A stretch of DNA of 64,000 nucleotides, from positions 1,842-65,841 of IMG/VR virus record IMGVR_UViG_3300028498_000052. One strand, written 5' to 3'. The stretch comes from a virus. The notes under the pieces are model-generated. The model was not told the DNA's origin, did not search any database, and saw nothing but the letters and a program-made list of their open reading frames with translations. Positions 3,746 through 63,668 of the stretch are shown in pieces (position 1 is the first letter of the stretch; each line of letters starts with the position of its first letter). A program made the translations under genes and the position numbers.

Positions 3746-6463
3746 TTAAACAGCTCCGCCTTTTTTGCCAGTGCTACCAGCCTTGGCAGAACAGTCGGCA
3801 AGCTCGTCCTGAGGCATGGTAATCGTTGGGCTACTTCCGCCCCCACTACCCCAATCCACCTTACTTGCTTTATAGCCCACTTGGCTTGGCGTGATAAAAG
3901 TCACATTACCGCCAGATATCTCAATACCACTGCCAGCAGCTTTTAAGGTCAACGTATCAGGGACAATAATCTCAATACTGTCTCGGCTATGGATGCGCAG
4001 TACTTGTTCACTATCGAGGCGCATCTCGCTTTGATGCGCTTGTATGGTCACATCACCATGGGCGGCGGTATGGGTTTGTGTTTTGTTTGAGTAGTAATGC
4101 ATGTCACCTGCGACCAACTGATTCATCTGCATTTGACTGTGATGATGGGTATCTGCTGCCGCATGACTATGCATACTTTGGGTGCTGGTAAATTGGCTAT
4201 GTTGTCCACTTAACAGTGCGAGGTGACGCTGGGAGTCGATTAGCAGGTTAGCTTGCTGCCATTGTCCAGACTCGCTCAGCGCAGCATCATTGGTATCTTT
4301 GCTAAACTTGGCAAATGGTGTTTGAGCGTCTTCTTGGTTTTGGCTACCTTTTGGTTTGTTATTGGCACCGCTAGCCAATCCAACGGGCTGATGGGTATTG
4401 GCGAGTTGCTCATACGCTTGTTGATGCTGATCAGCCGTTTGTAGTTTGCTATGACTGTCATGACTCATATGAGGGTTTGATAAGGGGTCTGCTTGCCGAC
4501 TACTGATATGCAGTCCTTTGCTACCTTGTACATTAGCGGCTGCCTCAGTTTCTATGCTGATGCCGCGTCCACGTGCAAGGCCGCGCGTGTGGTCAGTATG
4601 TTGATATAGATGACCGATGGTCAGGCTGCTTTGGTAGCTTGTACTATAGACATTGATTTGCGGACTCTCAGGATGGGCATCAAACATGAGCTGGTTGTAG
4701 CCGTTAGCGAGGCTGTCTTTGGTCGTATCTCCCGTACGGCTTGAGTCGATACTTTGGGTTTTAATACCGTCTATGGGATGGGCATGACTTTGATTAATGA
4801 ACCATGTCGGACTAGTCGCATCGATAAAGTCTGTATCACTTACTATACTGTTGTGCTGAGCATCACTGTTGCCCTGACCGTTGTGGGTGCTACCGATGAT
4901 GATAGGGTGATTGATATCACCACCGATAAAGTCGATCAAAACGTGTTGACCATGTCGCAGTGGATGGGTCTGTCCCATGTGGTCGGCAACTAGATGGCTA
5001 GCAATAGGTACCCAGTGAGACGTGTCACCATCATTATCTTGTCCGCCTTCATCATTTTGCCAGTGATAGCGAATGTGGGCACGATGATTACGATCAGTAT
5101 CAATAGCGCTGCCACTAGCAGTATCGACAATACTGGCACTCATCAGACCGGTGAGGCTAGGATGCGGTTGTCCAAGGTTTGCCAGCTGTTCGCCAAAGGG
5201 AATATGGTGATGGTGTGGAAATGGTAAGTAGCAAGCAGTGATATGATGGACGTGGTCAGTATCACTATGATCGTTCACATTAGGCTGTAAAGTAATGGGA
5301 TCAAAGGCTGCTATGCCCAACCAATCTGCGGGGAGGTGGTTGTTGATACGGTGATGAATAGATATGAGACTTATTGGCTCAGTCACATAAGGATTGCCAT
5401 CGAGATAGTGAGTACTCGGCAAATTGAGATGACGAATGTTACCAGCAAGGCTACCTACATTAGCAAGCTGCTGAGCATTCTTTTGATAGCGAATAGCCAA
5501 CTCTTCAAGCCCTTCATCATCAAAATGGGTATGGCTGTGTAAGAAGCGGGTATGACTATTTGGACTGTTCGATTCGATAGATTGTTCGCTAGTGCCGCTA
5601 CAAGTATAAGTACCTGTTAAGCGATTGTCATACCGATATAGGTCGGTTTGCTGGGTATGCTGCGCAACACGAGGTCGAATGGCAGTAACACGATCCTGTC
5701 TGTCGGCAAGGTTTGCTGGGTTTTGGCTTAAAGTGCTGCGAATGTCATTTGCGTCTGGACGCAATGCTTCGGCATTATGTGGCAATAAAACCAAAGTATG
5801 TTTGTCAGCTTCATGACGGTAGTAGCCTGTAACGCCATACAAAGCAAGATACTGAGTTAAATAAGCCAAATCCGTTTGATTGTATTGCACGCTGTGCTGA
5901 ATATGATAGTCGCTCAAACGCTCGTCGATCTCGATGTCCATCCCATAGGGGCTTAATATATCAGTGATGAGCTCGCTGAGGCTAAGGTGATGATGGCGAC
6001 GATTATGGCTAGCGAGACGTAGCTGGTTTAACGCAGGCTCGCAGACAATACGATAAGCTGCCATACCGCTATTGCTGCCCAGAGCTACTGCTTCCGTAAT
6101 AATTCCATGGCGAACTTGGCTAGGAATTGTAGCGTCGTCAGTGTTCCAATGAGTCGCCAGACTTTGCCCGAGCCAGTCTTTTATATTGAGTCCTGCCTGC
6201 GGATGCAATAAAGTGATGCTCATCCGGTAGCCGCAATATAGCGCAAGCTGGCGCTCTTGATAAGACTGCTGTCGTTGGTCGTGATGATAAGGGCTTGGAT
6301 AAGCAGTTGGCACCGGCATGAGAGCAGGTGTCTCCCAAACACTATCTGGCAGTGGCATTCCCAGCATGCTTTCAACAGTATCGGCTTGCTGAATAAGACT
6401 GGTGGCAATATCAGGGTGGGCACTACTGATTTGTAGATGTCGTTTTGTTTGAGTCCAAACCAT
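3746..6463 (-). CDS. vgrG: T6SS spike protein VgrG with DUF2345-type C-terminus
   Basis: VQYNQTDLAYL, PLRHGQHVLIDFIGGDINHPIIIGSTHN, NGYNQLMFD and GHL..RG.G motifs; C-terminal TLKAAGSGIEISGGNVTFITP. Confidence 0.9.
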   Translation of the reverse strand: MVWTQTKRHLQISSAHPDIATSLIQQADTVESMLGMPLPDSVWETPALMPVPTAYPSPYHHDQRQQSYQERQLALYCGYRMSITLLHPQAGLNIKDWLGQSLATHWNTDDATIPSQVRHGIITEAVALGSNSGMAAYRIVCEPALNQLRLASHNRRHHHLSLSELITDILSPYGMDIEIDERLSDYHIQHSVQYNQTDLAYLTQYLALYGVTGYYRHEADKHTLVLLPHNAEALRPDANDIRSTLSQNPANLADRQDRVTAIRPRVAQHTQQTDLYRYDNRLTGTYTCSGTSEQSIESNSPNSHTRFLHSHTHFDDEGLEELAIRYQKNAQQLANVGSLAGNIRHLNLPSTHYLDGNPYVTEPISLISIHHRINNHLPADWLGIAAFDPITLQPNVNDHSDTDHVHHITACYLPFPHHHHIPFGEQLANLGQPHPSLTGLMSASIVDTASGSAIDTDRNHRAHIRYHWQNDEGGQDNDGDTSHWVPIASHLVADHMGQTHPLRHGQHVLIDFIGGDINHPIIIGSTHNGQGNSDAQHNSIVSDTDFIDATSPTWFINQSHAHPIDGIKTQSIDSSRTGDTTKDSLANGYNQLMFDAHPESPQINVYSTSYQSSLTIGHLYQHTDHTRGLARGRGISIETEAAANVQGSKGLHISSRQADPLSNPHMSHDSHSKLQTADQHQQAYEQLANTHQPVGLASGANNKPKGSQNQEDAQTPFAKFSKDTNDAALSESGQWQQANLLIDSQRHLALLSGQHSQFTSTQSMHSHAAADTHHHSQMQMNQLVAGDMHYYSNKTQTHTAAHGDVTIQAHQSEMRLDSEQVLRIHSRDSIEIIVPDTLTLKAAGSGIEISGGNVTFITPSQVGYKASKVDWGSGGGSSPTITMPQDELADCSAKAGSTGKKGGAV

Positions 6464-6592: not shown

Positions 6593-7741
6593 TCAATACC
6601 CATCGTCAGACGACTCTCGTTTGGGCTGAATACCAATCATGTCAGAGAGCGTCGCTAATTGATCTTCATTTTTTATGATATGAGTCAGCCACTGATCCAG
6701 CGGCATATCTGCCCAATCAATCGCTCGTCCCAGCAAAAAAGTCACTGGGCTGTGCGGCTCATTGGTCGCAAAGTAATCTTGGATTTGACCCAATAACTTG
6801 AGGGCCTGCCGGCGGTTGCTTTGATGATCGCGATTGCTCGGATTAAAGCTGGTTGGCTTAGCGTTTGTAGAATTGCTTGCTTGTCCACCGTTATCCAAAA
6901 TAGACTCTTCATTTCCTATAACATCGGCTGTATTGTTATTTTCTGTACCAGCACCGTCTACATTGATAGTAGACTCTGGAAGCAATGAGCGCAGATGCTG
7001 ACTAAGGGCTGCCAATAAATCCGTCACTGGGGCAAACACGGGCGCATCCATACCCATGAGGTCGTTCAGCTGGTCAGTAAGCGCCTGCCATTGCTCAATG
7101 ATGGTCGTGAGATTGGTCATTAGCGTTTGTTGCCATGACTCACTACTGTTTTTTATGGCATGATTATAGTCACTCAGTATTAATTGGTTGGGCGTTTCAC
7201 CATCAGGATTTTGTTGACGCTGCTTGTCATGATCGCGAGCGGTTAGATAATAATTGTAATTATAATTGCCAGCTTTGGTATCAGAGAGCGATAACTGCTT
7301 AAGGTCATCAGTCAGTGTTTTGACAAACCATGACAGCAGTCCTGCCCTAATATCCATGCTGTCTTCTTCACCATCGAGTGGCGGATACATTGTGAGCCAG
7401 TATTCATCATTGAGTGCTTGTAATAGGCTAATGCCATGACTAATACCAGCTAAATGGTCGGTATGACTGAGCGCATCGACATACCAAAGCGCCAGCTTCA
7501 TGTCTTTACTGGTACGGCTCAATAACTCTGCACATTGCTCTTTGACAAAATCCCAATCAGCAATTTTTAGCTCAGTGACCCAGTTACCTTGTGCTAACAG
7601 TGGATCGTCCTCTTGACGAGCAGCAATGATGGCATCCACACGTGGGTCAAATATTAAATCTTCTCCCACGCCATGATGACTGCCATCAATAGGAGCAATC
7701 AGCGTGTCAATCGAGGTCATTAAAGAATGATCAGTTTTCAT
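6593..7741 (-). CDS. tssA: T6SS TssA (ImpA N-terminal domain)
   Basis: GEDLIFD..AR.EDDP..QG.W..ELK.ADW; SKDMKL; C-terminal EPHSPV.FL..RAI.WADMPL..WL. Confidence 0.92.
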   Translation of the reverse strand: MKTDHSLMTSIDTLIAPIDGSHHGVGEDLIFDPRVDAIIAARQEDDPLLAQGNWVTELKIADWDFVKEQCAELLSRTSKDMKLALWYVDALSHTDHLAGISHGISLLQALNDEYWLTMYPPLDGEEDSMDIRAGLLSWFVKTLTDDLKQLSLSDTKAGNYNYNYYLTARDHDKQRQQNPDGETPNQLILSDYNHAIKNSSESWQQTLMTNLTTIIEQWQALTDQLNDLMGMDAPVFAPVTDLLAALSQHLRSLLPESTINVDGAGTENNNTADVIGNEESILDNGGQASNSTNAKPTSFNPSNRDHQSNRRQALKLLGQIQDYFATNEPHSPVTFLLGRAIDWADMPLDQWLTHIIKNEDQLATLSDMIGIQPKRESSDDGY

Positions 7742-10638
7742 TATAGGGACTCTTCCTTAATCGGTTTTTTACGCTTTGTCTTTTTGGCTGGTGCATCCTT
7801 AGTGGCTTTTTTGCTGATCGGTTTTGTGGCTAAAATGGTCTCAGTATTAGAGCTACCCTCTATCTCAGTTTTGGTTTCACTGTATTGCGCCATTTGGTTG
7901 AGCGCCACAACAGAATCGCAGTCGAGGCGATAAGCAAAGTTATCATCGGCATCGACGAATACCGTAATCTTTCTTAGCACGCTTTGACTGTCATCATGAG
8001 CCAGTAGCTGACTTGCCAGCTGTGGCAATAGCGTATGACTAATGATGGCATCAGCGTTACGTGCACCCGAGTCAACTTCATGACAACGAGATAAAATCAG
8101 CTCAATTACTTCAGGGTCAATGACACAAGGCACGTCATAATTGTCACGAATACGATCGGTAATCTTGTTCAGCTTGAGACGAATAATTTCTGCCAGTGCG
8201 TCATCGGTCAACGGATAATAAGGAATCACCGTCAGACGACCCAAAAACGCAGGTTTAAAGGCTTTGTATAAATGCGGATTAATCACCTGCTTTAAACTAT
8301 CGCTGTCTGGCAAGCTAAAATCAGTATTAGCAGGATCTGTATTGATACACTGCTGCATAATCTGCGATGAACCAATATTGCTGGTCAATAAGATAAGGGT
8401 ATTTTTAAAATCGATTAAGCGGCCTTCGCTATCTTCCATGACCCCTTTATCAAAAACCTGATAAAACAAATCCAACACATCAGGATGCGCCTTTTCTACT
8501 TCGTCAAGTAACAGTACGCTATAAGGACGACGACGGATCGCTTCTGTCAACACGCCACCTTCCCCATAGCCAACATATCCTGGTGGCGAGCCTTTCAACG
8601 AGGCAACACTATGGGCTTCTTGATATTCTGAGAGGTTAATCGTAATAAGGTTACGCTCACCGCCGTACAGTACTTCAGATAGTGCCAATGCGGTTTCTGT
8701 CTTGCCTACGCCACTTGGGCCCACAAGCATAAATACCCCTTGCGGACGATTGGGATCATCTAGACGTGCTTTGGCGGTATGAATACGTTTGACGATGGCG
8801 GCAACAGAATGGTCTTGCCCAATGACGCGTGCTTGTAAGGTATCCGCCAAGGTTAATATATGGTTTTTTTCATTGCCTGTCATATCGTTAAGCGGAATAC
8901 CGGTCCAATCTGAGATAATCTGTTTGATGACTTGGCGATCCAATACGGCATGGATGAGTCGATGTGCTTCTTGTACCTGTTTTAGCGCTTGCTCAATCGC
9001 TTGATACTCGGCTTGTTTGTCTAAGCGCTCCTTTGCACTAAGGTTATCAGAGCCCTTAATTTTGCTATTCAACTGTTGATTAAGCACATCAAGTTGATCA
9101 TTAAGCGTACGCTGCTCTTGCCAACGAGCCGTCATATCAATAATGCTTTTCTGATTGGCTTGGCGCTGCTCATCAAGCACCGCTATCTGCTGGCTGACTT
9201 TTTCTTTTTCATCAACACCGCCAATACGCTCAAGCTGCTGACTGAGATTGTTGATATGCTGCTCTAACTGCGTGCCTTTTGCTTTTAATTTGTCGAGCTG
9301 ATTGGGCATAACAGTCTTTGATAAACTCACACGGGCGGCGGCAGTATCCAATACACTCACCGCTTTATCAGGCAGCTGTCTGTCACTAATATAACGGGCT
9401 GATAGCTCAACGGCTGCTTGTAGCGCATCATCATCTATCAAGATACCGAAATGCGCGTGCATTTTGGCGCTTAAGCCACGAATCATCGCCACTGCCGTGT
9501 CAATATCAGGCTCCTCGACTTTGACTACTTGAAAGCGACGCGACAATGCCGCATCTTTTTCGAAGTACTTTTTATACTCCGACCAAGTCGTGGCGGCAAT
9601 CGTTCGTAGCTCACCGCGAGCCAGTGCGGGTTTTAGCAAGTTGGCCGCGTCGTTTTGCCCTGCTTGACCGCCCGCCCCAATCAGGGTGTGCGCTTCGTCA
9701 ATGAATAAAATGATTGGCTGTACAGACGCTTGTACTTCTTCAATGACTTGCTTCAAACGATTTTCGAACTCGCCTTTGACGCTCGCCCCTGCTTGTAGCA
9801 GTCCCATATCGAGACTACGTATCGTCACGTCTTTGAGTTGGTCGGGAACCTGACCTGCCACTATTTTTTGTGCCAAGCCTTCTACTACGGCAGTCTTGCC
9901 CACCCCGGCCTCGCCCGTCAAAATCGGGTTGTTTTGGCGACGACGGATTAAAATATCGATCAATTGATGAATCTCAAACTCACGACCAATGACTGGATCT
10001 ATTTGCTCAGCAGTCGCTTTGGCGGTTAAGTCATACGTGTATTTGTCTAGCGCAGGTGTGGGCTGAGCCGTTTGCGCAATGTCTACATTCTTATTATCGC
10101 TGTCACCATCTGTTTTACTTTTGTTGAGATTGGCGGAACTACCGCCCTCAGTGCTACCAAGGCATTGACGCTCATAGTCGTCTTTTAGCGTAAAACGATC
10201 AATATACTGAAGCTGCTCAGGCAGCGCATGAAGCAATGGCTGATAACGCTCATGAGTCAAAAGCACCAGCAATATGTGTCCAGAGCGGATTTCTAGTGGA
10301 CTATTGTTATTCTCACTTTGGCTATATTGGCTACTTGCCAGCTCCCATGCATCTTCGAGCAATGCCATCAAACGCTCACTAAAGACAGGTGTTGAGCCTG
10401 TTGCCTGTCCAAACGCACCCAATAAATCTGTGATTTCTGCTAGTAGTAACGGCTGATTAATTTTATTCGCTTTCAATATTTGCGCCACATCATTATGCGC
10501 AGTGGCGATGAGTTCATGCAGCAAATGAATGGTATCTACTTCGCGATGTCCTTTATCAATACAAAGCCGAGCTGCCTGCTGCAAACACTGTCGGCAGCTC
10601 GGACTCAAGCGGGTAATCACAGCTTTTAACTGACTCAT
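7741..10638 (-). CDS. tssH: T6SS AAA+ ATPase ClpV/TssH
   Basis: Two Walker A motifs ([16 protein letters not shown]); [17 protein letters not shown]; [17 protein letters not shown]; extra Lys-rich tail. Confidence 0.97.
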
Positions 10639-14184: not shown

Positions 14185-14688
14185 TTAGGCAGTATAAGTG
14201 GCAGTGTTATTGGCTAGTGACCACTTCTTAGTGACTGCGCCTTTGGCAGTACCATCGATATCTTGTTGCGTGTAAGTCCACTCAACCGCGGCATACTTGA
14301 TACCAACTTTTTCAGTTGGGACACCTTCCGAACGTACTGTAGGCTCGACACTAGCAATAAGCGCATGCTTCAGCTTTATCTCAAGATATTTAACACGCTT
14401 ATCGCCATTCGCACGATAAAAATCAATTTGAATTTCATCAAAAGTATAACCAGCAGAACAAGCTTCCCATAATTTAGGGCTCGTAGAATCCAAATCTTTT
14501 ATGAAAGTCATATCAGCGTGCTCGCAACGCTCAGAAGTATGACCACCAACACTACTTGCTGTTGCTGATTTTGGCTGACGGATTAAATGATCCCATGTAT
14601 TTACTTCAAGCCAACCTTTATGCTCGCTATCACGAGATTCCCCATCGATCTTGTATTTACCACGAAACTGAATATAAATATCTTTCAT
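14185..14688 (-). CDS. hcp: Hcp (TssD) tube protein
   Basis: GESRDSEHKGWLEV..W; K.LDSTSPKLWEACSAG; KWSLANN. Confidence 0.97.
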   Translation of the reverse strand: MKDIYIQFRGKYKIDGESRDSEHKGWLEVNTWDHLIRQPKSATASSVGGHTSERCEHADMTFIKDLDSTSPKLWEACSAGYTFDEIQIDFYRANGDKRVKYLEIKLKHALIASVEPTVRSEGVPTEKVGIKYAAVEWTYTQQDIDGTAKGAVTKKWSLANNTATYTA

Positions 14689-14742
14689 ATCACATACCTT
14701 GTTTTAGGAGGTTTAGATTTAACATTGAGTTTAAATAAATGA

Positions 14743-16233
14743 TTAGCTGTTGCTAGCCTGCGGCAGTTGAGTGACCAGACGCAAAGAAACAGACAACTCG
14801 TCAAGTTGAAAGTGTGGTCTTAAGAAAACCACTGACTTGTAGACACCAGGCTTACCTGGCACTTCTACAACTTGTACAGAAGCTTCGCGCAGAGGATACT
14901 GGGCTTTTGCTTCTTGTGAGGCTCCATCGTCTAGCAAGACGTAGCGAGAAATCCAGTCATTCAAGAAAGATTCAACATTGCCAGGTGCCAAAAAGCTACC
15001 AACCTTGTCGCGCATCATTGCTTTTAAGTAATGAGCAATACGTGATACGGCCATAATGTATTGCAGCTGAGTTGATAGCACAGCATTGGCATTGGCATCG
15101 TCGTTTTGATACGTTTTAGCTTTTTGAACGGACTGTGCACCAAAGAACGCTGCATAATTGGTGTTCTTGCAATGGACTAATGGAATGAAGCCCAAATCGC
15201 TTAACTCTTTTTCACGGCGGTCAGTAATAGAGATTTCAGTCGGACATTTAAGCGCCAGATCTCCTTCATCCGTCTTGAAGGTATGCACAGGTAGATTTTC
15301 TACCAAGCCGCCACCTTCGACCCCGCGAATAGCGGCACACCAACGATAATCAGAGAAAGCTGAGGTCAAACGTGATGCGAAGGCATAAGCAGCATTGACC
15401 CATAGATAATCACTATGGTCATTACCAGAAACCTCTTCAGTAAAGTTAAAGCCTTCAACCACGGTTCCATCTTTAGGGTTGTAGGGCAAACGACCTAAAA
15501 AGCTAGGAACAGTGAGCGCAACGTAGCGGGCGTCTTCTGATTGTCTAAACGCACGCCAGCGGATGTACTCCGCAGTCTCAAATATTTTTGATAAATCTCT
15601 AGGGCGACCAATATCTGTAAAAGAGTCCAGCCCAAACATTTCAGCAGAGGCCGCTGATACAAAAGGTGCATGAGAAGCCGCAGCAACATGAGATAATTGC
15701 TCAAGTAGATACATGTCAGCATTTTGACGAGTAAACTCAAAATCACCAATAATGGCTGCGTATGGCTCGCCACCAAAACTACCAAACTCTTCTTCGTATA
15801 TTTTCTTGAATAACGTGCTTTGATCAAAATCTATTGAAGACTGAAAGTCTTTAGTAAGTTCACGTTTGTTGGTATTCATCATGCGTATTTTTAGCATTGA
15901 TTCCGACGGTGTTTGACTACACAAATAATGTAAACCACGCCAACTGGATTCTAATTTTTGAAATTCAGGCGCATGCATCACTGTCGTCAGCTGTTTAGAT
16001 ATCAGTGCGTCAATCTGTGCAATACGAGCATCAATCGATGCTGATAAATTATCAGATAAAGTCACTGTGCCTTGCATAACTTCATTAGCTAGCTCTGCGA
16101 TTTGCGACTTTGCACGATTCTTTTCTTCATCAGACTTGGCAATGTTACTTTTAATAACGATTTCTTCGAGTAAGTCGTAGCTTTCGTTATTTAACGGGTC
16201 GGTTACTATATTCTGCTGGGCCTGAGCATTCAT
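14743..16233 (-). CDS. tssC: T6SS sheath large subunit TssC
   Basis: FQKLESSWRGLHYL; YEEEFGSFGGEPY; AIRGVEGGGLVENLP; RREKELSDLGFIPL. Confidence 0.98.
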   Translation of the reverse strand: MNAQAQQNIVTDPLNNESYDLLEEIVIKSNIAKSDEEKNRAKSQIAELANEVMQGTVTLSDNLSASIDARIAQIDALISKQLTTVMHAPEFQKLESSWRGLHYLCSQTPSESMLKIRMMNTNKRELTKDFQSSIDFDQSTLFKKIYEEEFGSFGGEPYAAIIGDFEFTRQNADMYLLEQLSHVAAASHAPFVSAASAEMFGLDSFTDIGRPRDLSKIFETAEYIRWRAFRQSEDARYVALTVPSFLGRLPYNPKDGTVVEGFNFTEEVSGNDHSDYLWVNAAYAFASRLTSAFSDYRWCAAIRGVEGGGLVENLPVHTFKTDEGDLALKCPTEISITDRREKELSDLGFIPLVHCKNTNYAAFFGAQSVQKAKTYQNDDANANAVLSTQLQYIMAVSRIAHYLKAMMRDKVGSFLAPGNVESFLNDWISRYVLLDDGASQEAKAQYPLREASVQVVEVPGKPGVYKSVVFLRPHFQLDELSVSLRLVTQLPQASNS

Positions 16234-18261: not shown

Positions 18262-21240
18262 ATGTCTTACAAAACCGCTAGATTACACAGTATTGTCGTT
18301 AATTCTAGCTTATTCGAACAAGATATATTTTATCCCCTTGCATTTTCTGAAACGAGCAGTATCAATCAAAACGATAATATTTTTATACTAGTGTTTATTA
18401 AAATATTTTTAGATTCGAACGATTGTTTATCATTAATTAACATGCCTGTATACCTGAGTATACTGTCATCCAATCGCATTGCCACTTCTCGTACGGGACT
18501 GATAAAAGGTGTCAACTATCAGTATTCAGACGGTGCCATACATTTCTACACTTTAGAAATTGTCAGTCCCGATTGGCAACTGACTCAATCTATGCATACT
18601 CGTAGTTTCATCAATCAGTCTACCCTCGATATAGTGACGACTATCCTTAGTGACTATGATATAAAGTGGCAAGTCTCTGAGGTGCTACTGTCATCAGAAC
18701 GCTTGTCTGAAACGCTATCGATACGCACGCAGTCAGATATTAGTGACTATGACTTTGTCACTGGATTGCTTGCTGATATTGGGGTATCTACCTTGTGGGT
18801 ATCGAGTGATTCAGTTGATGATATTGGAACATGGTTGTTAGTCGGTGGGTTGGATGAAAGCGAGCTGTTACCACTAAGCTACAGCTATGCTCAATCCTCA
18901 GTACAATCCGGTCAAGACAATGTGAATACGCTACAAATGAGTAATCAGCAGCTTGGTAGTCATACGGTGGTGGTCCGAGCAGATGGTTTGGCCAATGATA
19001 CTATCTATGAAGGGCAAGCGATTGATGACTCGCTTTTAGCAATTGATGACATTACAGTATTACTGGCGGCACCGTCTCGAGTGAGTAGTGATGAATCCGC
19101 AAATCAAATGGCTCAGCAATGGATACGGGCAAATCGTTGCCTGCGAGAAACCTATCAAGCCAGTGGCGCGATGCGTGGTCTTTGCATCGGTAGCCCAGTT
19201 GATATCTGTGATATACCATCGATTGGCCGCTTAACGACTCGCTGTATAGATACCATCACAATCGGCATTGAACCCGATAACGACAGTACCTCCTATCATC
19301 ATAAGGCGTTTATCAAAAAGTGGTTAGAGCAGACTGTACAATGCATGCAAAACTATGTCGTGAATACTACTGACATAATTCTTCCCCAAAATGCCTATGA
19401 CATTGCCTGTGATACGGGTATTTGGGTAACAGCAACCCTACTTGACTCCACTATTCCTTACTGTCCTTATCCCAGTCATCTGTCGTTGGTCAGTAGTACC
19501 TATCAAGGTCTTGCTCAAGCACGTACCAGTAACATTAGTGCACCCACCTACGACTCTCGCATCACTGACGACAACCTACACCAAACCATCTCTACTCCTG
19601 TTTGGTCAGGGATTAGCCCTCACGATGATGGCACTACTCCGCCCCTACGCTCATTACAATTGTCATCAGGTGCGACACATGGTTGGCAGTTTGCCCCGCG
19701 TATGGGACAACCAGTGTTGCTTAGTCATTGGTATGGGGATATTGACAGTCCGGTGATTAGCCGGTCACTGTTTGACGGTATCGGTATGGGCGATACGGAT
19801 GAGCATGACATCACTACCCGTGATGCTGGCTTATCTAACAGGCACAACGTACAAGGCGGCACCTCCCCTAGATGGCATGGCAATGGTTTGGGACACTCGC
19901 AAATCAGTGAGGACGATATTCACAGCGGCTGGATATCGGGGATTGCTCAGTATGGACTAAGCGCTGAGTCTGAGGTGACGTTCAGCTTTGATGATACGCC
20001 AAACAAAGTAGGGCTACAGTGGACGGTCAATACTGGGTCAAGTGCAAACAGCGAAAATCCAACCATCACAGAGATGGCGACCTTTGCGCCCGATGAACAC
20101 GTAGTAGAGCTTGGCGTCTTGCGGCATCGTTATAGCAATCATCAATCAAGTGACCGCGGTCAAGGGATTAATGTCGCCACCGATCACGGACTACAGGTCA
20201 GTGGCGATACAGGTGTGTTGCTCTCAACCTTTGGACTCAGACACTCACAATCAGAGCATGAGTCGGCGTGGGTCAATGATGCTGGACAACAGCAACTTAA
20301 AATAGGCGCTGAGTTGGGTGAGACGCTAAAAGAGGCCAAACAAGCACATCTACAATCGATACAGACTCTGAATAATGTGAATCAATCGATAAATGCCTTT
20401 AAAACCACGGCACAAGTGATAGATGAGACACTCAATGCGGAAGTCTTAGGTGCACCCGATGTGATGCTGGTCAGTCGTGACAGTATTCTTGCGTCTGCCA
20501 ATAATACTCTATGGACAGCGAAGACGATTGTCAGACAATCAGGCAGCACACAGTCAGATGTGGTGGCAGGCAATTATACGCTGACGGCAGATACAATTGA
20601 CTTGCTCTCAGGTATTGGCGGTCAAGCAAATCTATCAGGTCTACATATCAGTGCCAATACCAAACCTGTGGCGATACAAGCGCAAGGTGGTGAGTTGCAG
20701 TTGCACTCTCAGCAAAGTATGACAATTGGTAGTGAGTCGGGACCCGTAAATGTGTCGAGTCCGAAGCGCATCAAGCTGCAAACATCAGCAGGGGCTTCGA
20801 TTACGATTGATGATAGCGGGATTAAGCTGGTTTGTCCGGGGACGATTAAGGTGCAGGCGGTGAAGAAAAAGTTGATGGGTGGTGCGAAAGCCAATTACTC
20901 GCTGCCAATGATGCCGGAGACTATTCCGCTCTTTAGTAATAAGCTTGATGTTTATGACTTGTTTTATCATGCTGACTTTAATGAAGTAGATTACGTAGCA
21001 ATGTTAGATGATGGTCAGATAGTAGAAGGAACATTAGATGAACATGGGCGGACTAATAGATTGATCTCTATGAAGTCTGAAGAAGCTGAAGTATTAGTAG
21101 GATATCTGAATAATTGGAGTATAGAAATTGAAGATGATGATGATGATGATGAAAATGAAGAGGTAGAATTCGAATATTCAGAAGAATGCGCTTGCCAAGC
21201 GCCAGAAGAAGATATCGATCTTTTAGAGGATGAAGAATAA
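18262..21240 (+). CDS. vgrG: Second VgrG, with DUF2345, a C-terminal extension domain and an acidic tail
   Basis: RTQSDISDYDFVTGLLA; GWQFAPRMGQPVL; SPKRIKLQTSAGASITID..GI..CPG.I.V; C-terminal Y...LDDGQIVEGTLDEHGRT.R and an Asp/Glu-rich tail. Confidence 0.88.
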   Translation: MSYKTARLHSIVVNSSLFEQDIFYPLAFSETSSINQNDNIFILVFIKIFLDSNDCLSLINMPVYLSILSSNRIATSRTGLIKGVNYQYSDGAIHFYTLEIVSPDWQLTQSMHTRSFINQSTLDIVTTILSDYDIKWQVSEVLLSSERLSETLSIRTQSDISDYDFVTGLLADIGVSTLWVSSDSVDDIGTWLLVGGLDESELLPLSYSYAQSSVQSGQDNVNTLQMSNQQLGSHTVVVRADGLANDTIYEGQAIDDSLLAIDDITVLLAAPSRVSSDESANQMAQQWIRANRCLRETYQASGAMRGLCIGSPVDICDIPSIGRLTTRCIDTITIGIEPDNDSTSYHHKAFIKKWLEQTVQCMQNYVVNTTDIILPQNAYDIACDTGIWVTATLLDSTIPYCPYPSHLSLVSSTYQGLAQARTSNISAPTYDSRITDDNLHQTISTPVWSGISPHDDGTTPPLRSLQLSSGATHGWQFAPRMGQPVLLSHWYGDIDSPVISRSLFDGIGMGDTDEHDITTRDAGLSNRHNVQGGTSPRWHGNGLGHSQISEDDIHSGWISGIAQYGLSAESEVTFSFDDTPNKVGLQWTVNTGSSANSENPTITEMATFAPDEHVVELGVLRHRYSNHQSSDRGQGINVATDHGLQVSGDTGVLLSTFGLRHSQSEHESAWVNDAGQQQLKIGAELGETLKEAKQAHLQSIQTLNNVNQSINAFKTTAQVIDETLNAEVLGAPDVMLVSRDSILASANNTLWTAKTIVRQSGSTQSDVVAGNYTLTADTIDLLSGIGGQANLSGLHISANTKPVAIQAQGGELQLHSQQSMTIGSESGPVNVSSPKRIKLQTSAGASITIDDSGIKLVCPGTIKVQAVKKKLMGGAKANYSLPMMPETIPLFSNKLDVYDLFYHADFNEVDYVAMLDDGQIVEGTLDEHGRTNRLISMKSEEAEVLVGYLNNWSIEIEDDDDDDENEEVEFEYSEECACQAPEEDIDLLEDEE

Positions 21241-25148: not shown

Positions 25149-25183
25149 AAAAAAAATCCGACCACCTAAGTGATCGGATTTTT
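25149..25183. terminator. Terminator hairpin beside the left ssrA 3'-end copy
   Basis: AAAAATCCGA...TCGGATTTTT. Confidence 0.7.
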
Positions 25184-25189
25184 AGTATT

Positions 25190-25211
25190 TGGTGGAGATG
25201 GCGGGAGTTGA
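25190..25211 (-). repeat. att core, copy 1: 3' end of tmRNA (ssrA)
   Basis: TGGTGGAGATGGCGGGAGTTGA is the reverse complement of TCAACTCCCGCCATCTCCACCA, the gammaproteobacterial tmRNA 3' end; repeated exactly at 28481. Confidence 0.88.
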
Positions 25212-25542
25212 TATACTGTGCTACATACATTGATATACAAGGCTTCCAGCATGAAATAAGCTCATGGTGTGTCATAGGTGTGTATGATATATTCAATATT
25301 TGTTTGCTATTATTCTAAATATTGCAGGATAATAAGGTATCTCTAGATACAAATGTTAGTACTTAGTTATTTCAAAGCAGTTTTAGCTGTTATTTATCTT
25401 CTTTAACAAATTGACTATAAAATATTAGGTCTACTAATATTTTATGATTTAAAAGAATAAGTAGTTGATTAGCTTCTCACTATCGATAGATGATATGATT
25501 TTACCCGATACTTAATAAATCTTTTTTAAAGCTAAAAACACT

Positions 25543-26793
25543 ATGACTCAAAATTATACTAATGCTGATCAAAACCAAGCAGAATCTCAAGCTATTATGA
25601 AGTCTGATAAAAATAGTAATAGCCTTACCCTAAAGGGTAAAGGTAGCTTATTGGCATTAACAAATTCTATCATTAGTTCAGCAATAGCCGCACGTAAGGC
25701 TGGTCAATTAGCAGTTGATGATAGCTGGATACAGGAAATATGGGATTGGGCAGATGAATTTGAACTAACTGAAACACAAATACCACGCAATAAAGAAGAT
25801 TTAATAAAACTAGAGTCTTTAAATATTGAAATGTGTCGCTCTGAGGACCTTGAGAACCTTTTGGAAGAGAAAAAAGAGGCAGAGGAATCTCTGAGAGTGG
25901 AAAATGAAAGACTACAAAGAGCGAGGGATATAGGACTACATATTGGTGGGATACCTCCAGAGTTTATAAAAGTACATGACCTGAATAACGAAGTAAGACG
26001 TTTGGAAAGGCTCTTATCTACCACTAATAAAATTAATTCTATACCTGTTGAACTGAGCCATCTCCAGAATCTTATAAAGATTGAACTTCAGAGGGTAGAT
26101 TCTAGTAATTTCTTAAAAAATGCCCAGTCATTTAGTAATTTAAAGACGTTAGTAGCTATGAGATGTAACGTCAGTAATTTTTTCGAGGAAATTTGTCAGC
26201 TGAAACAGTTGACTGATATTATTATTCGTGGATCAGAGATAATAAATATACCTCAGAGCATCCGTCAGCTTAGTAACCTGACTAAACTTAGTATCAATAA
26301 TTGTAAGTCAATAACAATCCATAAAGATATTCATCATCTTAGTAATTTAACCAAACTTAGTATTGATAACTGTAATTCGCTAGAAATTCCTGAAGCTATT
26401 TGTAAACTCATAAATTTAACTGAACTTAATATTACTAATTGTAATTTATCAGAAATTCCTGAAGCTATATTCCAACTCAAAAATTTAAATAAGCTTAACA
26501 TAGCAGGCAATAACATTAGTACATTACCAGAAAATATTAGCAAGTTAAAAGATCTTACTAGCCTCAATATTAGTAATAACTATATTACAACCCTACCCAC
26601 TAGCATGTGTTTGCTTGAAAGTTTAATTTCATTTCATATAGACGTTGGAATTCTTAAAGATTTACCAAATTATGGTTACAATCAAGCGTTAGAAGGATTT
26701 GATATTAAAGTTAATGCAATAAATAACCTTCCTCTAAGTCTTAAATTAATTAAAGAGCATTACTTCCATGGTGAAGAGGACCAGCCTTTCTAA
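25543..26793 (+). CDS. Leucine-rich-repeat protein
   Basis: Repeated LxxLxxLxIxxCxLxEIPxxI units; 69-bp DNA periodicity (26269/26338, 26383/26452). Confidence 0.9.
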   Translation: MTQNYTNADQNQAESQAIMKSDKNSNSLTLKGKGSLLALTNSIISSAIAARKAGQLAVDDSWIQEIWDWADEFELTETQIPRNKEDLIKLESLNIEMCRSEDLENLLEEKKEAEESLRVENERLQRARDIGLHIGGIPPEFIKVHDLNNEVRRLERLLSTTNKINSIPVELSHLQNLIKIELQRVDSSNFLKNAQSFSNLKTLVAMRCNVSNFFEEICQLKQLTDIIIRGSEIINIPQSIRQLSNLTKLSINNCKSITIHKDIHHLSNLTKLSIDNCNSLEIPEAICKLINLTELNITNCNLSEIPEAIFQLKNLNKLNIAGNNISTLPENISKLKDLTSLNISNNYITTLPTSMCLLESLISFHIDVGILKDLPNYGYNQALEGFDIKVNAINNLPLSLKLIKEHYFHGEEDQPF

Positions 26794-26862
26794 TACTACT
26801 ATAGCGATATATATAGTAAAGAAGTAAACCCCTTTTCTTAACTTTTATAATTCTTAAATTGG

Positions 26863-28224
26863 ATGAGTATGCAAACCGAAGCAATATTTGAAGACATCGC
26901 TGAGCGAATTCGCCTTGAGCTGGAGCAAGCGAAGCAAAGCATCTATATTGCTGTCGCTTGGTTTACTAATCGCACTTTATTTAACACGCTTATTGAAAAA
27001 TCAAAAGAGGGTGTCACCGTTCAGTTGATGCTATCAAACGATCACATCAATCAGCAAAGTTATGTCGACTACGACCAATTAAGTGTTGGCAACTCTGCTG
27101 CCTATCTAATCGGTGACGGTAAAACAAACCTTATGCACAATAAGTTTTGTGTGATTGACAGTGATACTGTGATTAATGGCTCTTATAACTGGAGCTATAA
27201 GGCTGAGAAAAATCATGAGAATGTACTGATTACTAAAGGCGATACCATTTTAGCTGAACAATTCATTAGTCAATTTAAGAAAATCCGCAATACCTACTTT
27301 GATCATCAAGATAGCACCCCAGACTTACCACTCGATAAAATCATCAAACGTCTCGAAATTATCAAAAACTACGTTATCCTAGAGGATATAGATGATATTA
27401 CGCGCGAAAACACCAAGCTAAAGACATACGCCTTTCAACAAGACATTGCTGCTATCACCCAAGCTTTACAACAGCATAGCTTTGATACTGCAATTACCCT
27501 CATTGACCAATTCATCAAAAACCATCATGCCTTGGTCGTCTATAAAGATATTGATGTCAAAGCTTTGAAATTAGAGATCCGCCATCTTGAACACCAACTC
27601 AATGCCTACGACAATGAGAAGATTGAATTGGATAAAATGCTTTCAGAATTTCATTACCGTCATACTAATGAGCTCGGAAGCTACATCAGCCGATTACTAC
27701 AATTACGCAAGTTATCTACCAAAGATAATCCTGAAGAGTATGCAGAAGCCGTGCAAGATGAAGAAGACTACAACGAGCAAATTGAAATTGAATCAGAAAA
27801 AATAATTTATGAGCTCGATGAGGAAGAACGCGTAGAGCTAAAGAAGACCTATCGACAAGCCAGTCAAATCTGTCACCCTGATCGTGTTAGTGAAGAGATG
27901 AAAGATATTGCACAAGAGGTTTTTATAAAACTCAACGAAGCCTATGAAAAAAATGATGTCATTGAAGTGCAAGAAATACTGGCGGAGCTAAAGCAAGGTA
28001 TGTTTAAACCTCGCTCAGAAACGGTTAGCAAATCAGAGCAGCTTAAAGCCATTGTTCAGATATTAAAACATAAGATTGAGAAAGTCGAACAAGAGATTTT
28101 TGCGATCAAAAACAGTAAAGACTATCAAACCATCAGTAGTATTAACGATTGGAATGCGTATTTTGAAGAAATAAAAGCACAACTGAAGGAAGAAATTGAT
28201 TACCTTGAGACTAATAATGTATAG
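26863..28224 (+). CDS. PLD-family (single HKD, Nuc-like) nuclease fused to a coiled coil and a DnaJ J-domain
   Basis: IAVAWFT; MHNKFCVID...INGSYNW; LKKTYRQASQICHPDRV...FIKLNEAY (HPD motif). Confidence 0.88.
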   Translation: MSMQTEAIFEDIAERIRLELEQAKQSIYIAVAWFTNRTLFNTLIEKSKEGVTVQLMLSNDHINQQSYVDYDQLSVGNSAAYLIGDGKTNLMHNKFCVIDSDTVINGSYNWSYKAEKNHENVLITKGDTILAEQFISQFKKIRNTYFDHQDSTPDLPLDKIIKRLEIIKNYVILEDIDDITRENTKLKTYAFQQDIAAITQALQQHSFDTAITLIDQFIKNHHALVVYKDIDVKALKLEIRHLEHQLNAYDNEKIELDKMLSEFHYRHTNELGSYISRLLQLRKLSTKDNPEEYAEAVQDEEDYNEQIEIESEKIIYELDEEERVELKKTYRQASQICHPDRVSEEMKDIAQEVFIKLNEAYEKNDVIEVQEILAELKQGMFKPRSETVSKSEQLKAIVQILKHKIEKVEQEIFAIKNSKDYQTISSINDWNAYFEEIKAQLKEEIDYLETNNV

Positions 28225-28393
28225 GTGATTTTATTGATTAGACGCATCTACGGTGCTAACTGAAAATATGTCTTTTTCACTAAATATTTGGCTATTTCCT
28301 GTGTGTAATCCGTGTACGTCAGGTGTGTATTATTACGATATTAATCGTTTTTTTCGTATCTATTGTCCTGAACAAAAACATATTGTAGGTAAT

Positions 28394-28430
28394 AAAAAAC
28401 CCCTCAAAGCGTTGTGCTATAAGGGGTTTT
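28394..28430. terminator. Terminator hairpin beside the second ssrA 3'-end copy
   Basis: AAAACCCCT...AGGGGTTTT. Confidence 0.7.
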
Positions 28431-28480
28431 CGCTTTTAACGTTTGTTACTATTTTATTGCTGGTTTGTTGCTTTTTGTAT

Positions 28481-28507
28481 TGGTGGAGATGGCGGGAGTT
28501 GAACCCG
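28481..28507 (-). repeat. att core, copy 2: 3' end of tmRNA; probable left boundary of the prophage
   Basis: TGGTGGAGATGGCGGGAGTTGAACCCG, followed by arm-like TGTCAA repeats (28610, 28622). Confidence 0.88.
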
Positions 28508-28636
28508 ATATCATCACATTCTATCAAACGCTATCAAATTCATACTTAGTAATATCAATGACTTACGAAAATTGAATGTGATTACGTGTGATAGTGTTTG
28601 ATGGTAGGCTGTCAAAAATCATGTCAAGAATTACGA

Positions 28637-61312: not shown

Positions 61313-61681
61313 ATGCCAAATGAATCTCAAGCCATAATCGATCTGCTCCATCAAATGGGCCTAACACCGCTTGATTGGGTAGACGCCAAGCAGTTTGCTG
61401 AACTGACTGGCATTGATGAAAAGAAGCTTACTCACCGTAAGCAACACTGGCCAGAAAACGTTGTTTGGATGAAAGAAACTGGTAACCTGTATTATTCAAT
61501 AAGAGGATATAACAAGTGGATGACGCAGCAGGCAGACATACGTTACCGCAAGGCGTGCGGCTTAGATCGGGGCGCATCCAGATCTACTTTAGCCGAAACG
61601 GTAGCTCCCATCACGTCACGCTCCCACACCCAGTCACTGCGGAAGGCATCAAAGCAGCTGCTAAGATTAGACGCGATTTAA
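61313..61681 (+). CDS. xis: Excisionase-like protein
   Basis: WVDAKQFAELTG...W..E.GNLYYSIRGYNKW winged-helix pattern; upstream of and overlapping int. Confidence 0.75.
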   Translation: MPNESQAIIDLLHQMGLTPLDWVDAKQFAELTGIDEKKLTHRKQHWPENVVWMKETGNLYYSIRGYNKWMTQQADIRYRKACGLDRGASRSTLAETVAPITSRSHTQSLRKASKQLLRLDAI

Positions 61682-62670
61682 TTACCAAAGCTGAATGGGG
61701 TGTGCTGACAGAAGCAGACCTCGCCAGCGCTAAAGGCGAACTGGTTAATGATGATAGCGTTATCGTTGGTGATGGCGCTCTATTTCAAGAAGTCGCCCAA
61801 AAATACCTCAAGCATTGTGAAGCCAACACCGACTCTAAAAAGGATTATGTCAGCGCATTAAATAAGCACTGGATGCCACATTTGGCATTGATGCCTATTC
61901 ATGACATAACATCCGACCTGATACGCGACATCATATCTGATATCAATTTTAAATCTGATAAGACCTTTAATAATTGTTTGGTACCACTCAGAGGTGTATT
62001 CGATAAAGCGCTTGAGCTACGATTAATCGTGCCAGCAGAAAACCCTATGGCTATGATCAAAAATAAAAAGGTGCAATCAGGATTACCTGATCCATTTACA
62101 CGCGCTGAAATGGATGCGCTATTAAATTGGCTGGATAATAATTTATCAGATAAAGATCACTTCTATTACTGGTACTTCGAAGTAGCGTTTTGGACAGGCT
62201 GTCGCCCAAGTGAGCTGTATGCCCTAAGATGGAAAGATATCGACTGGTTTAATGGCTCAGTGATTATCAATAAGAGTCGTGTGCGTGGTGTTGAGAAGCA
62301 AGTAACCAAAACTCACACTGCGCGTGAAGTCTATTTAAACGATCGTTCTAAGCGTGCGTTTGAAGCAATAGATGCTATGAAGCTCAGTAATGACTATGTG
62401 ATGATATGTCCTGAGACAAGCCAGCCTTTCTACAATGAGAAGCCAGCACGCATGCGCCTGATTGAAGCGATGAAGTCTACTCGCGTGCGTCACAGGCCAG
62501 CATATAACGCTAGGCACACCTATGCGACAATGCTACTCATGTCTGACGTAAACCCAGTGTTTGTCGCTAACCAATTGGGCCATAGCTTACAGATGCTTAT
62601 TAAGCGTTATGGACGATGGCTGCATGGTGATCAAAACAAGCTTGAGATATCGAAGCTAACAACTGATTAA
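61516..62670 (+). CDS. int: Tyrosine integrase with an N-terminal arm-binding domain
   Basis: TGCRPSELYAL (Arg); KT; YNARHTYAT; QLGHSLQMLIKRYGRW (His, Tyr). Confidence 0.95.
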   Translation: MDDAAGRHTLPQGVRLRSGRIQIYFSRNGSSHHVTLPHPVTAEGIKAAAKIRRDLITKAEWGVLTEADLASAKGELVNDDSVIVGDGALFQEVAQKYLKHCEANTDSKKDYVSALNKHWMPHLALMPIHDITSDLIRDIISDINFKSDKTFNNCLVPLRGVFDKALELRLIVPAENPMAMIKNKKVQSGLPDPFTRAEMDALLNWLDNNLSDKDHFYYWYFEVAFWTGCRPSELYALRWKDIDWFNGSVIINKSRVRGVEKQVTKTHTAREVYLNDRSKRAFEAIDAMKLSNDYVMICPETSQPFYNEKPARMRLIEAMKSTRVRHRPAYNARHTYATMLLMSDVNPVFVANQLGHSLQMLIKRYGRWLHGDQNKLEISKLTTD

Positions 62671-62913
62671 TATCCTCTCGCCATCCCACCGTTTTATCAA
62701 AAAGCTTTTAATCCTACTGCATGAGTTTTATAGGATCGCATCCCAAATGCGATCCTGATGTTCGTGAAACTTTCTATCATCTGCATTCACGCAACTATAT
62801 TTGTTTATTAACATTGCTCAAAACTTACTAATAAGTTAAAGTTGATTAATATTTTTTTATTATCACAAAAAACTTATAGCTATCAGTATAGTTAATAGAA
62901 AGGTAATTTCCGC

Positions 62914-63207
62914 ATGAAAAAACTAATACTAGCCTCTATACTAACTATCTTCGCACTTTCATCTAATGCTGCAATCAAAACAATAGAAAATCCGTTCCAA
63001 AGTAATACAGTCTTGAAAGAATCTGTCGAAATCGGCCACCCATTATTTGCCAAAGGTGTAGGTGGTTCGCAGTGCAAAGGCTTACCAAGTGTCTGTGGTC
63101 AGATGGCTAATTGTGAGCAGGCTAAGCAAGCACTGAAGTGTGGTAATACTAGATTAGATAGAGATAAAGACGGAGTACCATGCGAATCAATCTGCCCAGG
63201 TGGTTAA
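62914..63207 (+). CDS. Secreted Excalibur calcium-binding domain protein
   Basis: Signal peptide; C..M.NCEQAK..L.CG..RLDRDKDGVPCESIC. Confidence 0.85.
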   Translation: MKKLILASILTIFALSSNAAIKTIENPFQSNTVLKESVEIGHPLFAKGVGGSQCKGLPSVCGQMANCEQAKQALKCGNTRLDRDKDGVPCESICPGG

Positions 63208-63569: not shown

Positions 63570-63668
63570 GCACTTCGATATCTTATCAATGATGGTAAAA
63601 ACTATATATAAACACAATACCAAAACTAAAAACTCATTGCTAAAAGTTCACTTATAAAGTAACCTATT

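What the first reader, a model, noticed from the sequence alone, without database searches (positions are those of the whole stretch)
25190..28507. Integrase-less 3.3 kb islet with both att cores and matching arm-type repeats: candidate hitch-hiking defence cassette
Seen: identical 22-bp tmRNA-end repeats 3291 bp apart. Tandem GTGTGT(A/C) repeats lie just inside both ends (GGTGTGTCATAGGTGTGTAT at 25266-85; GTGTGTAATCCGTGTACGTCAGGTGTGTAT at 28301-30), sharing an exact AGGTGTGTAT. There are two cargo genes and no recombinase. Known: tyrosine integrases need a core plus arm sites, and ssrA is an island hotspot rich in defence cargo. Inference: a non-autonomous element that can be excised or integrated in trans. 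The adjacent prophage has different flank repeats (TGTCAA), so the helper may be another integrase.
Basis: partly seen in the sequence, partly recalled or inferred. Interest (0 to 1): 0.72.

Follow-up and report, generated by a model that had tools for sequence, protein, structure and literature searches.

The report
Integrase-less mini-island at tmRNA gene
A 3.3-kb insert with no recombinase of its own lies in the end of the tmRNA gene of a Psychrobacter strain and carries a probable two-gene anti-phage cassette. It is a real but familiar kind of decayed integrated element, and nothing shows that it still moves.

Summary
An exact 23-bp copy of the tmRNA (ssrA) 3' end lies at 25189-25211 and at 28480-28502. 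Between the copies are only an LRR gene, a PLD-nuclease/J-domain gene and about 450 bp of unique end sequence.

A prophage-free strain of the same species has the islet directly against a complete tmRNA gene. The islet therefore supplies the present 3' end of ssrA, and it is older than the neighbouring Psymv2-like prophage. Three prophage variants sit beside an unchanged islet. Other species have the site empty, with the same genes on both sides.

The two genes form a portable cassette (25464/25469 to 28215/28288). Elsewhere this cassette lies in defence islands, next to Drt2 with type I R-M, and next to Wadjet-like, Abi and MmeI-like genes. The GGTGTGT end repeats are modestly enriched (empirical p about 0.02). 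They resemble, by analogy, the ATCATGTCA repeats found at both ends of the prophage.

No relative with these ends turned up, with or without an integrase, in 154 Psychrobacter genomes, 401 Moraxellaceae genomes, IMG/VR, JGI metagenomes, phage records or plasmid records. Sequence divergence fits vertical inheritance.

This matches the known pattern of a cis-mobilisable element (CIME) followed by accretion. The scan has reported similar ssrA islets in other genomes.

The parts
25152..25183 (-). Native ssrA terminator hairpin, displaced from the gene by the insertions
   Evidence: Terminator scan. The stretch of terminator plus core is 100% identical over 64 nt to the empty site of G337 and is conserved in G399 and G243.
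25189..25211 (+). C1: displaced 3'-terminal 22 nt of ssrA plus 1 nt; the distal att core of the islet
   Evidence: Exact repeat. Identity with tmRNA ends inside the T-loop (AGTTGA|T), read from the sequence.
25212..25468 (+). Left end ('arm') of the islet, unique sequence; tandem GGTGTGTCATAGGTGTGTAT at 25266-25285 with an 11-nt period, 55 nt from the core
   Evidence: No BLAST relative in 154 genus genomes or 401 family genomes. Motif statistics.
25469..25542 (+). Conserved leader of the cassette, with the 17-bp palindrome TCACTATCGATAGATGA
   Evidence: Homology with G285 begins at 25469 and with L163 at 25464. Alignment A2; sequence.
25543..26793 (+). LRR protein, 416 aa (conserved N-terminal domain, coiled coil, leucine-rich repeats)
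   Evidence: Pfam LRR_14 at 5.7e-21. Paired with the PLD-J gene in G285, G337 and L163.
26863..28224 (+). PLD-family (HKD) nuclease domain fused to a J-domain with an HPD motif, 453 aa
   Evidence: Pfam PLDc_2 at 1.1e-22. DnaJ at 9.1e-6, 26.1 bits, just under the 27.8-bit cut-off. HNK...GSYN and CHPD motifs read. PADLOC matches only the PLD domain of DrmC/MkoB.
28225..28288 (+). Conserved 3' tail of the cassette
   Evidence: Homology with G285 runs to 28288.
28289..28479 (+). Right end ('arm') of the islet; GTGTGTAATCCGTGTACGTCAGGTGTGTAT at 28301-28330; hairpin at 28396-28430 that would serve as the ssrA terminator on the minus strand when no prophage is present
   Evidence: Only the hairpin has look-alikes in the genus. 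Inverted repeat I21. In L113 this end lies directly against the full tmRNA gene.
28480..28507 (+). C2: islet-borne ssrA 3' end (27 nt of tmRNA plus 1). This is the real end of ssrA in prophage-free strains; here it is the distal att of the prophage
   Evidence: In L113 the tmRNA gene at 14720-15078 starts at this repeat. Most Logan contigs break at 28507.
28508..28636 (+). P' arm of the Psymv2-like prophage (repeats CTATCAAA, TGTGAT, TGTCAA)
   Evidence: 84% identical to the attP end of Psychrobacter phage Psymv2 and 88% to the match in Acinetobacter phage AbIPP1. 96% identical to the prophage end in G225, which has no islet.
61516..62670 (+). Tyrosine integrase of the prophage, the only recombinase in the 67-kb record
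   Evidence: Pfam Phage_integrase at 1.1e-14; Arm-DNA-bind_2 at 5e-4, 20.5 bits, below the 22-bit cut-off. The third core, C3, lies at the record's end, about 1.2 kb beyond the window.

Best explanation
The segment is a 3.29-kb integrase-less mini-island of the CIME type, bounded by att cores, in the tmRNA gene of a Psychrobacter species.

An integrating element recombined with ssrA inside the T-loop. Site-specific recombination by a tyrosine integrase is inferred from the junction anatomy. Its own copy of the last 22 nt of ssrA, with its own terminator 50 nt downstream, became the working end of the gene. The original end with the native terminator was pushed 3.3 kb away and is now C1.

What remains is about 257 bp plus 191 bp of attP-like end sequence around a portable two-gene cassette: an LRR protein and a PLD nuclease with a J-domain. 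The cassette is probably an anti-phage system.

The integrase was lost, or was never linked. The islet is now inherited vertically in one sublineage. Psymv2-like phages later integrated repeatedly into the regenerated ssrA next to it (accretion), which gives the order C1-islet-C2-prophage-C3-ssrA.

Shown: the insertion, the order of events, the absence of a recombinase, the portability of the cassette and its defence-island neighbours. Inferred: the kind of recombinase, the arm-site role of the GGTGTGT repeats, and the defence function. Present-day mobility is neither shown nor excluded.
For: Repeat and anatomy
- The 23-bp repeat is exact and far beyond chance.
- Identity with tmRNA starts in the T-loop and runs to the 3' end, read.

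Order of events
- L113 (NCBI assembly, 99.2% identical over 14.7 kb) has the islet directly against a complete tmRNA gene, followed by chromosomal genes, with no prophage.
- G225 has the related prophage against the native terminator with no islet.
- Three prophage variants flank an identical islet: the window with 3 TPR genes, L114 with 2, and L011 with an M15-type endolysin.

Empty sites
- G399, G337 and G243 have the empty site with terminator, ssrA and right flank conserved. G399 (immunity-gene homologue) and G337 (vgrG) also share the left flank; G243 only traces of it.

No recombinase
- None lies in the islet. The only integrase in the record belongs to the prophage.

Cassette
- Its boundaries recur independently, at 25469-28288 in G285 and 25464-28215 in L163.
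- Its neighbours there are Drt2 (2e-141) with hsdR/hsdM, and JetC/MksE-like, Abi_C and MmeI-like genes.

Decay at this site
- G367 (tmRNA 99.7%, flank 98.9% identical to L113) holds a 1.3-kb integrase-less relic of a Psymv2-like prophage at ssrA.

Vertical inheritance
- The islet differs from L113 at 1 of 3.3 kb, against about 10 of 9.7 kb in the flank outside a vgrG recombination tract.

Precedent
- The three-step CIME accretion scheme (PMC5704250).
- 15 integrase-less ssrA islands in Dehalococcoides (PMC3146451).
Against: - No parent element with these ends and an integrase was found, so 'decayed from a larger island' is a model and not an observation.
- The end sequences are the size of a complete attP and carry no gene debris. 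That is tidier than a random internal deletion would usually leave.
- C1 is still a perfect 23/23 match although it has no known function. The strains compared are too close for this to carry much weight.
- The defence role rests on neighbourhood and domains only. Outside Psychrobacter the PLD-J gene usually lacks an LRR partner.
Confidence: 0.72

Rival explanations
1. One reading: the islet is a working non-autonomous element. An integrase encoded elsewhere in the cell, or on an incoming element, binds the GGTGTGT arm sites and the shared core, and excises and reintegrates the islet in trans.
For: - Both cores are intact and identical.
- A rare heptamer recurs in tandem with an 11-nt period on both ends, in one orientation. 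The prophage likewise has ATCATGTCA on both arms.
- The ends together are the size of a full attP and contain nothing else.
- The cassette is clearly portable between contexts.
Against: - No second copy, no other location, no other cargo and no integrase-bearing relative in 154 genus genomes, 401 family genomes, IMG/VR, JGI metagenomes, phage records or plasmid records.
- No genome of the genus has an ssrA-end copy that diverges at the same base.
- The tandem GGTGTGT pattern occurs in the genus at chance level, 20 matches against 14 in the control.
- Every strain that carries this left flank and whose contig extends past the repeat has the islet in the same place.
- Divergence fits vertical descent.
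Confidence: 0.13
2. Cis-mobilisation with the prophage. The phage integrase sometimes recombines C1 with C3 and excises islet plus prophage as one circle, so the cassette travels in phage particles.
For: - The three cores share the same 23 bp, and both elements use the T-loop site.
- Transfer of CIME-ICE tandems is documented (PMC5704250).
Against: - C1 is flanked by the islet's end and not by the phage P' arm. That arm, with its own repeats, lies 3.3 kb away.
- Related prophages in G225 and in phage records (Psymv2, AbIPP1) carry no islet.
- The islet is unchanged beside three different prophages and in a prophage-free strain. This points to precise C2 x C3 exchange.
- The composite would be about 40 kb against 33-36 kb for the related phage genomes.
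Confidence: 0.06
3. The cassette arrived second. An older, already gene-poor relic at ssrA, like the 1.3-kb relic in G367, later received the LRR/PLD-J cassette by the recombination that shuffles defence cassettes between islands. On this view the ends and the cargo have separate histories.
For: - The cassette has the same sharp boundaries in three contexts, and the GGTGTGT motif is absent next to it elsewhere.
- Integrase-less relics of 1.3-2.2 kb are common at Psychrobacter ssrA.
Against: - No cassette-free version of these ends is known.
- No repeat or scar marks the cassette borders.
- This rival is compatible with the main explanation and is not a true alternative to it.
Confidence: 0.1
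4. The islet is simply the cargo end of the prophage, and 28480-28507 is an internal pseudo-att site.
For: It lies next to the prophage, and prophage ends often carry cargo genes.
Against: L113 has the islet without the prophage. G225 has the prophage without the islet. The Psymv2 genome ends at the core, right after its endolysin.
Confidence: 0.01

Closest known systems
CIMEs (cis-mobilisable elements) and ICE/IME accretion in streptococci, as defined in PMC5704250
   Same: [quoted passage not shown] This is exactly the order seen here.
   Different: - The incoming partner is a temperate phage, not an ICE or IME.
- Its arms are unrelated to those of the islet.
- No parent element and no co-excision are known.
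- The target is ssrA in a gammaproteobacterium.
Dehalococcoides ssrA-specific genomic islands without integration modules (PMC3146451)
   Same: Tandem islands downstream of ssrA, bounded by roughly 20-bp repeats of the ssrA 3' end, with the insertion point in the T-loop. Fifteen of them lack integrases and were proposed to be CIMEs.
   Different: The recombinase there is a serine recombinase (DsiB), and a conserved 15-bp motif and family-wide ends are known. Here the ends are unique and the cargo is a probable defence cassette, not rdhA genes.
Islander-type tRNA/tmRNA genomic islands (PMC4383910)
   Same: A regenerated target gene at one end, its displaced 3' fragment at the other, and an identity block running from a loop to the 3' end.
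   Different: By definition Islander islands contain an integrase gene; this one does not.
Psychrobacter phage Psymv2 (JF270478) and Acinetobacter phage AbIPP1 attP
   Same: The same target (ssrA T-loop to 3' end), and matching repeats on both arms.
   Different: - Their identity block is longer, running through ACCCG and a terminator copy.
- Their arm repeat is ATCATGTCA/TGTCAA, not GGTGTGT.
- They are complete phages.

Membership tests
tRNA/tmRNA-integrated genomic island (Islander definition) | Intact target gene at one end, regenerated by island sequence | tested here: met
   In L113 a full tmRNA gene (ARAGORN, tag ANDETYALAA) starts at the right-hand repeat.
tRNA/tmRNA-integrated genomic island (Islander definition) | Displaced 3' fragment of the target as a direct repeat at the far end | tested here: met
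   23/23 repeat at 25189-25211, next to the native terminator.
tRNA/tmRNA-integrated genomic island (Islander definition) | Integrase gene inside the island | tested here: not met
   Only the LRR and PLD-J genes are present. The non-coding parts are 331, 69 and 255 bp.
CIME (cis-mobilisable element) | Retains attL and attR | tested here: met
   Both cores are intact. Arm-like repeats on both ends, p about 0.02.
CIME (cis-mobilisable element) | Lacks integration and transfer genes | tested here: met
CIME (cis-mobilisable element) | Derived by decay from an autonomous element with the same att sites | tested here: inconclusive
   No relative of the ends was found. Decay of another element at the same site is seen in G367.
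CIME (cis-mobilisable element) | [quoted passage not shown] | tested here: met
   Prophage between C2 and C3 in the window, L114 and L011; none in L113.
CIME (cis-mobilisable element) | Excision or transfer together with the neighbour | not testable with these tools
Phage satellite (P4-like, PICI) | Own integrase, replication and helper-hijacking genes | tested here: not met
   None present.
Known anti-phage defence system (PADLOC) | Full set of system proteins matching a described system | tested here: not met
   Only the PLD domain matches DrmC/MkoB (7e-9, 1e-8). The LRR protein has no match.

The most novel reading that the evidence does not exclude
The islet is a minimal 'attP plus cargo' vehicle, not debris. 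On this reading, small att-bounded units in Psychrobacter carry single defence cassettes and are inserted and removed at ssrA by integrases supplied in trans. The same cassette would move between these vehicles and ordinary defence islands, in a way comparable to an integron using a tRNA-type site. Integrase-less mini-islets of 1.3-3.3 kb at ssrA in at least four other Psychrobacter genomes, two of them with the same junction but different cargo, would belong to the same phenomenon.
Probability: 0.1. Interest if true: 0.65.

Novelty: new member of a known kind. Interest (0 to 1): 0.3.

Why it matters
The locus gives a clearly ordered example of how a defence cassette becomes fixed at an integration hotspot. 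An element inserts in ssrA and loses, or never had, its integrase. Its cargo then stays put while phages come and go in the gene end that the element itself rebuilt. This is useful for annotating the variable region of Psychrobacter ssrA, and as context for testing the LRR plus PLD/J-domain pair as an anti-phage system. It does not change the current understanding of integrase-less islands. It would matter more if the islet were shown to excise.

Tried and rejected
Searches for relatives of the islet ends
- BLAST of the left end, the right end and the whole islet found no relative of either end. The right end gave only look-alikes of its terminator hairpin.
- Exact junction and arm patterns gave 0 hits in JGI metagenomes and IMG/VR.
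- Core plus GGTGTGT, and an 18-mer from the right end, gave 5 hits in IMG/VR, all unrelated by BLAST.
- Phage records gave only matches to the ssrA core, the terminator and the neighbouring prophage's P' arm (Psymv2, AbIPP1), none to the islet's own ends or genes; plasmid records gave nothing.

Search for a helper integrase through the motif
- Tandem GGTGTGT in 154 genomes was at chance level.
- The recurrent hits belong to a promoter-like block in tRNA-Pro satellites and not to att arms.

Other tests
- The idea that the right end derives from a Moraxella ssrA flank: no similarity.
- The idea that Logan contig breaks show empty sites: rejected. The breaks fall at the 67-bp terminator-plus-core repeat shared with the phage end.
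- Lower divergence of the islet as a sign of recent spread: rejected. 102 of the 112 flank differences lie in one vgrG recombination tract.
- The prophage-cargo reading: rejected.

Tools that could not be used
- The NCBI assemblies of the species are not held as whole genomes.
Full report
**Observation**

The window holds two exact copies of TTGGTGGAGATGGCGGGAGTTGA, at 25189-25211 and 28480-28502, which are 3291 bp apart. No shuffle of the window gives even one match to the 22-mer. The sequence is the reverse complement of the tmRNA 3' end, so ssrA lies on the minus strand to the right. The right-hand copy continues to match tmRNA as far as 28507 (ACCCG).

The GTGTGT repeats are at the stated coordinates and share AGGTGTGTAT. 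The shared 10-mer alone is unremarkable, since 11-22% of random or shuffled pairs share one. GGTGTGT occurs only 7 times on both strands of the 64-kb window, and 3 of those fall within the 448 bp of islet ends. Only 96 of 5000 random segment pairs show an equally rare shared heptamer.

The islet encodes an LRR protein (25543-26793) and a PLD-nuclease/J-domain protein (26863-28224). The second protein has HKD and HPD motifs. There is no room for a recombinase.

**Where the window lies**

The window is part of a 67-kb IMG/VR record.
- To the left of the islet is a chromosomal T6SS cluster ending in vgrG, a LysM effector and its immunity gene. It is followed by the native ssrA terminator at 25152-25183.
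- To the right of 28507 is a prophage. Its first 120 bp match the attP end of Psychrobacter phage Psymv2 and the attP region of Acinetobacter phage AbIPP1.
- The prophage integrase is at 61516-62670.
- The record ends inside a third core, C3, which is preceded by the phage's own terminator copy and by the tandem AATCATGTCAAAATCATGTCAT.

The layout is therefore: chromosome, terminator, C1, islet, C2, prophage of about 36.7 kb, C3 and the body of ssrA.

**Order of events**

- An NCBI assembly of the same species (L113, 99.2% identical over 14.7 kb) has the islet directly against a complete tmRNA gene, followed by chromosomal genes, with no prophage.
- A second assembly (L114) has the islet plus a prophage with two TPR genes, where the window has three.
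- A Logan contig (L011) has the islet plus a related prophage with a different endolysin.
- G225 has the related prophage directly against the native terminator, with no islet.
- G399, G337 and G243 have the empty site with terminator, ssrA and right flank conserved; G399 and G337 also share the left flank, G243 only traces of it.

The islet therefore inserted first. Its own copy of the ssrA end is the working 3' end of the gene, and the hairpin at 28396-28430 is placed to act as its terminator on the minus strand. Phages have since integrated several times into that regenerated end.

**Junction anatomy**

Identity between the islet and ssrA starts inside the T-loop and runs to the base after CCA. 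This fits a crossover in the T-loop. A T-loop insertion point is also reported for the Dehalococcoides ssrA islands, and that this is typical of tyrosine integrases targeting tRNA-type genes rests on my own knowledge.

The prophage uses the same loop. Its identity block is 5 nt longer and continues through a terminator copy. Its arms carry ATCATGTCA/TGTCAA repeats on both sides.

By analogy, the GGTGTGT repeats (11-nt period, one orientation, 55 nt from the core on one end and 150 nt on the other) are plausible arm-type sites of a different integrase. That role is inferred and not shown.

**The cargo is a portable cassette**

- In G285 the homology covers 25469-25805 and 26870-28288. In the metagenome contig L163 it covers 25464-28215 at 91% identity. 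The LRR-repeat region is divergent in G285.
- G285 places the pair beside Drt2 (2e-141) and a type I R-M system.
- L163 places it between JetC/MksE-like genes and a second LRR gene, Abi_C, an MmeI-like enzyme and a helicase.
- G337 places it in an integrative element with an RDF-like gene, YqaJ and DUF932.

This supports a defence role by association. PADLOC recognises only the PLD domain. Outside Psychrobacter the PLD-J gene usually has no LRR neighbour. The GGTGTGT motif is absent next to the cassette elsewhere, so the ends and the cargo are separable.

**Is it mobile?**

I found no relative of the 257-bp and 191-bp ends in any of the following:
- 154 genomes of the genus;
- 401 genomes of the family;
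- IMG/VR and JGI metagenomes;
- phage and plasmid records.

No genome of the genus has an ssrA-end copy that diverges at the same base. Every contig that carries the same immunity protein either has the islet in the same place or breaks at the 67-bp terminator-plus-core repeat.

Against L113 the islet differs at 1 of 3.3 kb. The flank differs at about 10 of 9.7 kb once a vgrG recombination tract is set aside. This fits vertical descent.

G367 is of the same or a sister species (tmRNA 99.7%, flank 98.9% identical). It lacks the islet and the T6SS block, and instead holds a 1.3-kb integrase-less relic of a Psymv2-like prophage at ssrA. Decay to small relics therefore does occur at this locus. 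G353/G389 and G369 carry further integrase-less mini-islets of 2.0-2.2 kb.

**Comparison with what is known**

The structure and history match the CIME-plus-accretion scheme: integration, loss of the integration genes with the att sites retained, then integration of a newcomer into the att site that contains the gene end (PMC5704250). They also match the integrase-less ssrA islands of Dehalococcoides (PMC3146451).

The islet fails the Islander definition only in lacking an integrase. Earlier follow-ups in this scan reported comparable integrase-less ssrA islets in several unrelated genomes.

**Verdict**

- The islet is a new member of a known kind.
- Trans- or cis-mobilisation remains possible but has no positive evidence.

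Noticed in passing
L131 (G367:C1) 6878-8260: A genome of the same or a sister species has a 1.3-kb integrase-less relic at ssrA. Its ssrA-proximal 179 nt are 80% identical to the right end of the window's prophage, and its distal ssrA-core copy is degenerate. This looks like a decayed Psymv2-like prophage.
   Followed up: partly
L129 (G353) 6619-8725; L128 (G389); L130 (G369) 6830-9100: Integrase-less mini-islets of 2.0-2.2 kb at ssrA, bounded by a terminator copy plus TTTGGTGGAGAG|G. The junction is the same in G353/G389 and G369, but the cargo differs (lipoprotein plus secreted protein in one, a 579-aa protein in the other).
   Followed up: partly
G000 record bases 1-55 (before the window) and window 1-25140: The record starts with the last 55 nt of a membrane-protein gene that in G367 lies directly against the ssrA terminator. 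The 27-kb T6SS/vgrG block is therefore present in some strains and absent in others, within or near the species.
   Followed up: partly
window 19000-20500: 102 of the 112 differences from strain L113 cluster inside vgrG, which suggests a recombination tract.
   Followed up: no
window 62900-64000 and about 1.2 kb beyond: This prophage carries about 2.5 kb of extra genes, including an Excalibur-domain protein, between its integrase and its ssrA-proximal end. In L153 and G225 the integrase lies next to ssrA.
   Followed up: no
window 25469-25805; L098, L099, L100: The cassette leader (with the palindrome TCACTATCGATAGATGA) and the first 90 or so codons of the LRR gene are conserved at DNA level upstream of other genes in several Psychrobacter genomes. 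This suggests a shared promoter plus N-terminal module. In L163 an XRE-type regulator gene lies just upstream.
   Followed up: no
L147 (G219:C18) 4322-4385 and 14457-14520; L148 (G430:C5): Islands at tRNA-Pro with a P4-like integrase, KilA-N and DUF927 carry the same 70-bp block twice, 9-10 kb apart. The block contains GGGTGTGTAAAGGTGTGTATTGTG, and each copy lies directly before a different gene of unknown function. These may be cargo slots of a satellite.
   Followed up: partly
L163 11405-12166: In the metagenome copy of the cassette a second, shorter LRR gene follows the PLD-J gene. It has the same N-terminal module.
   Followed up: no
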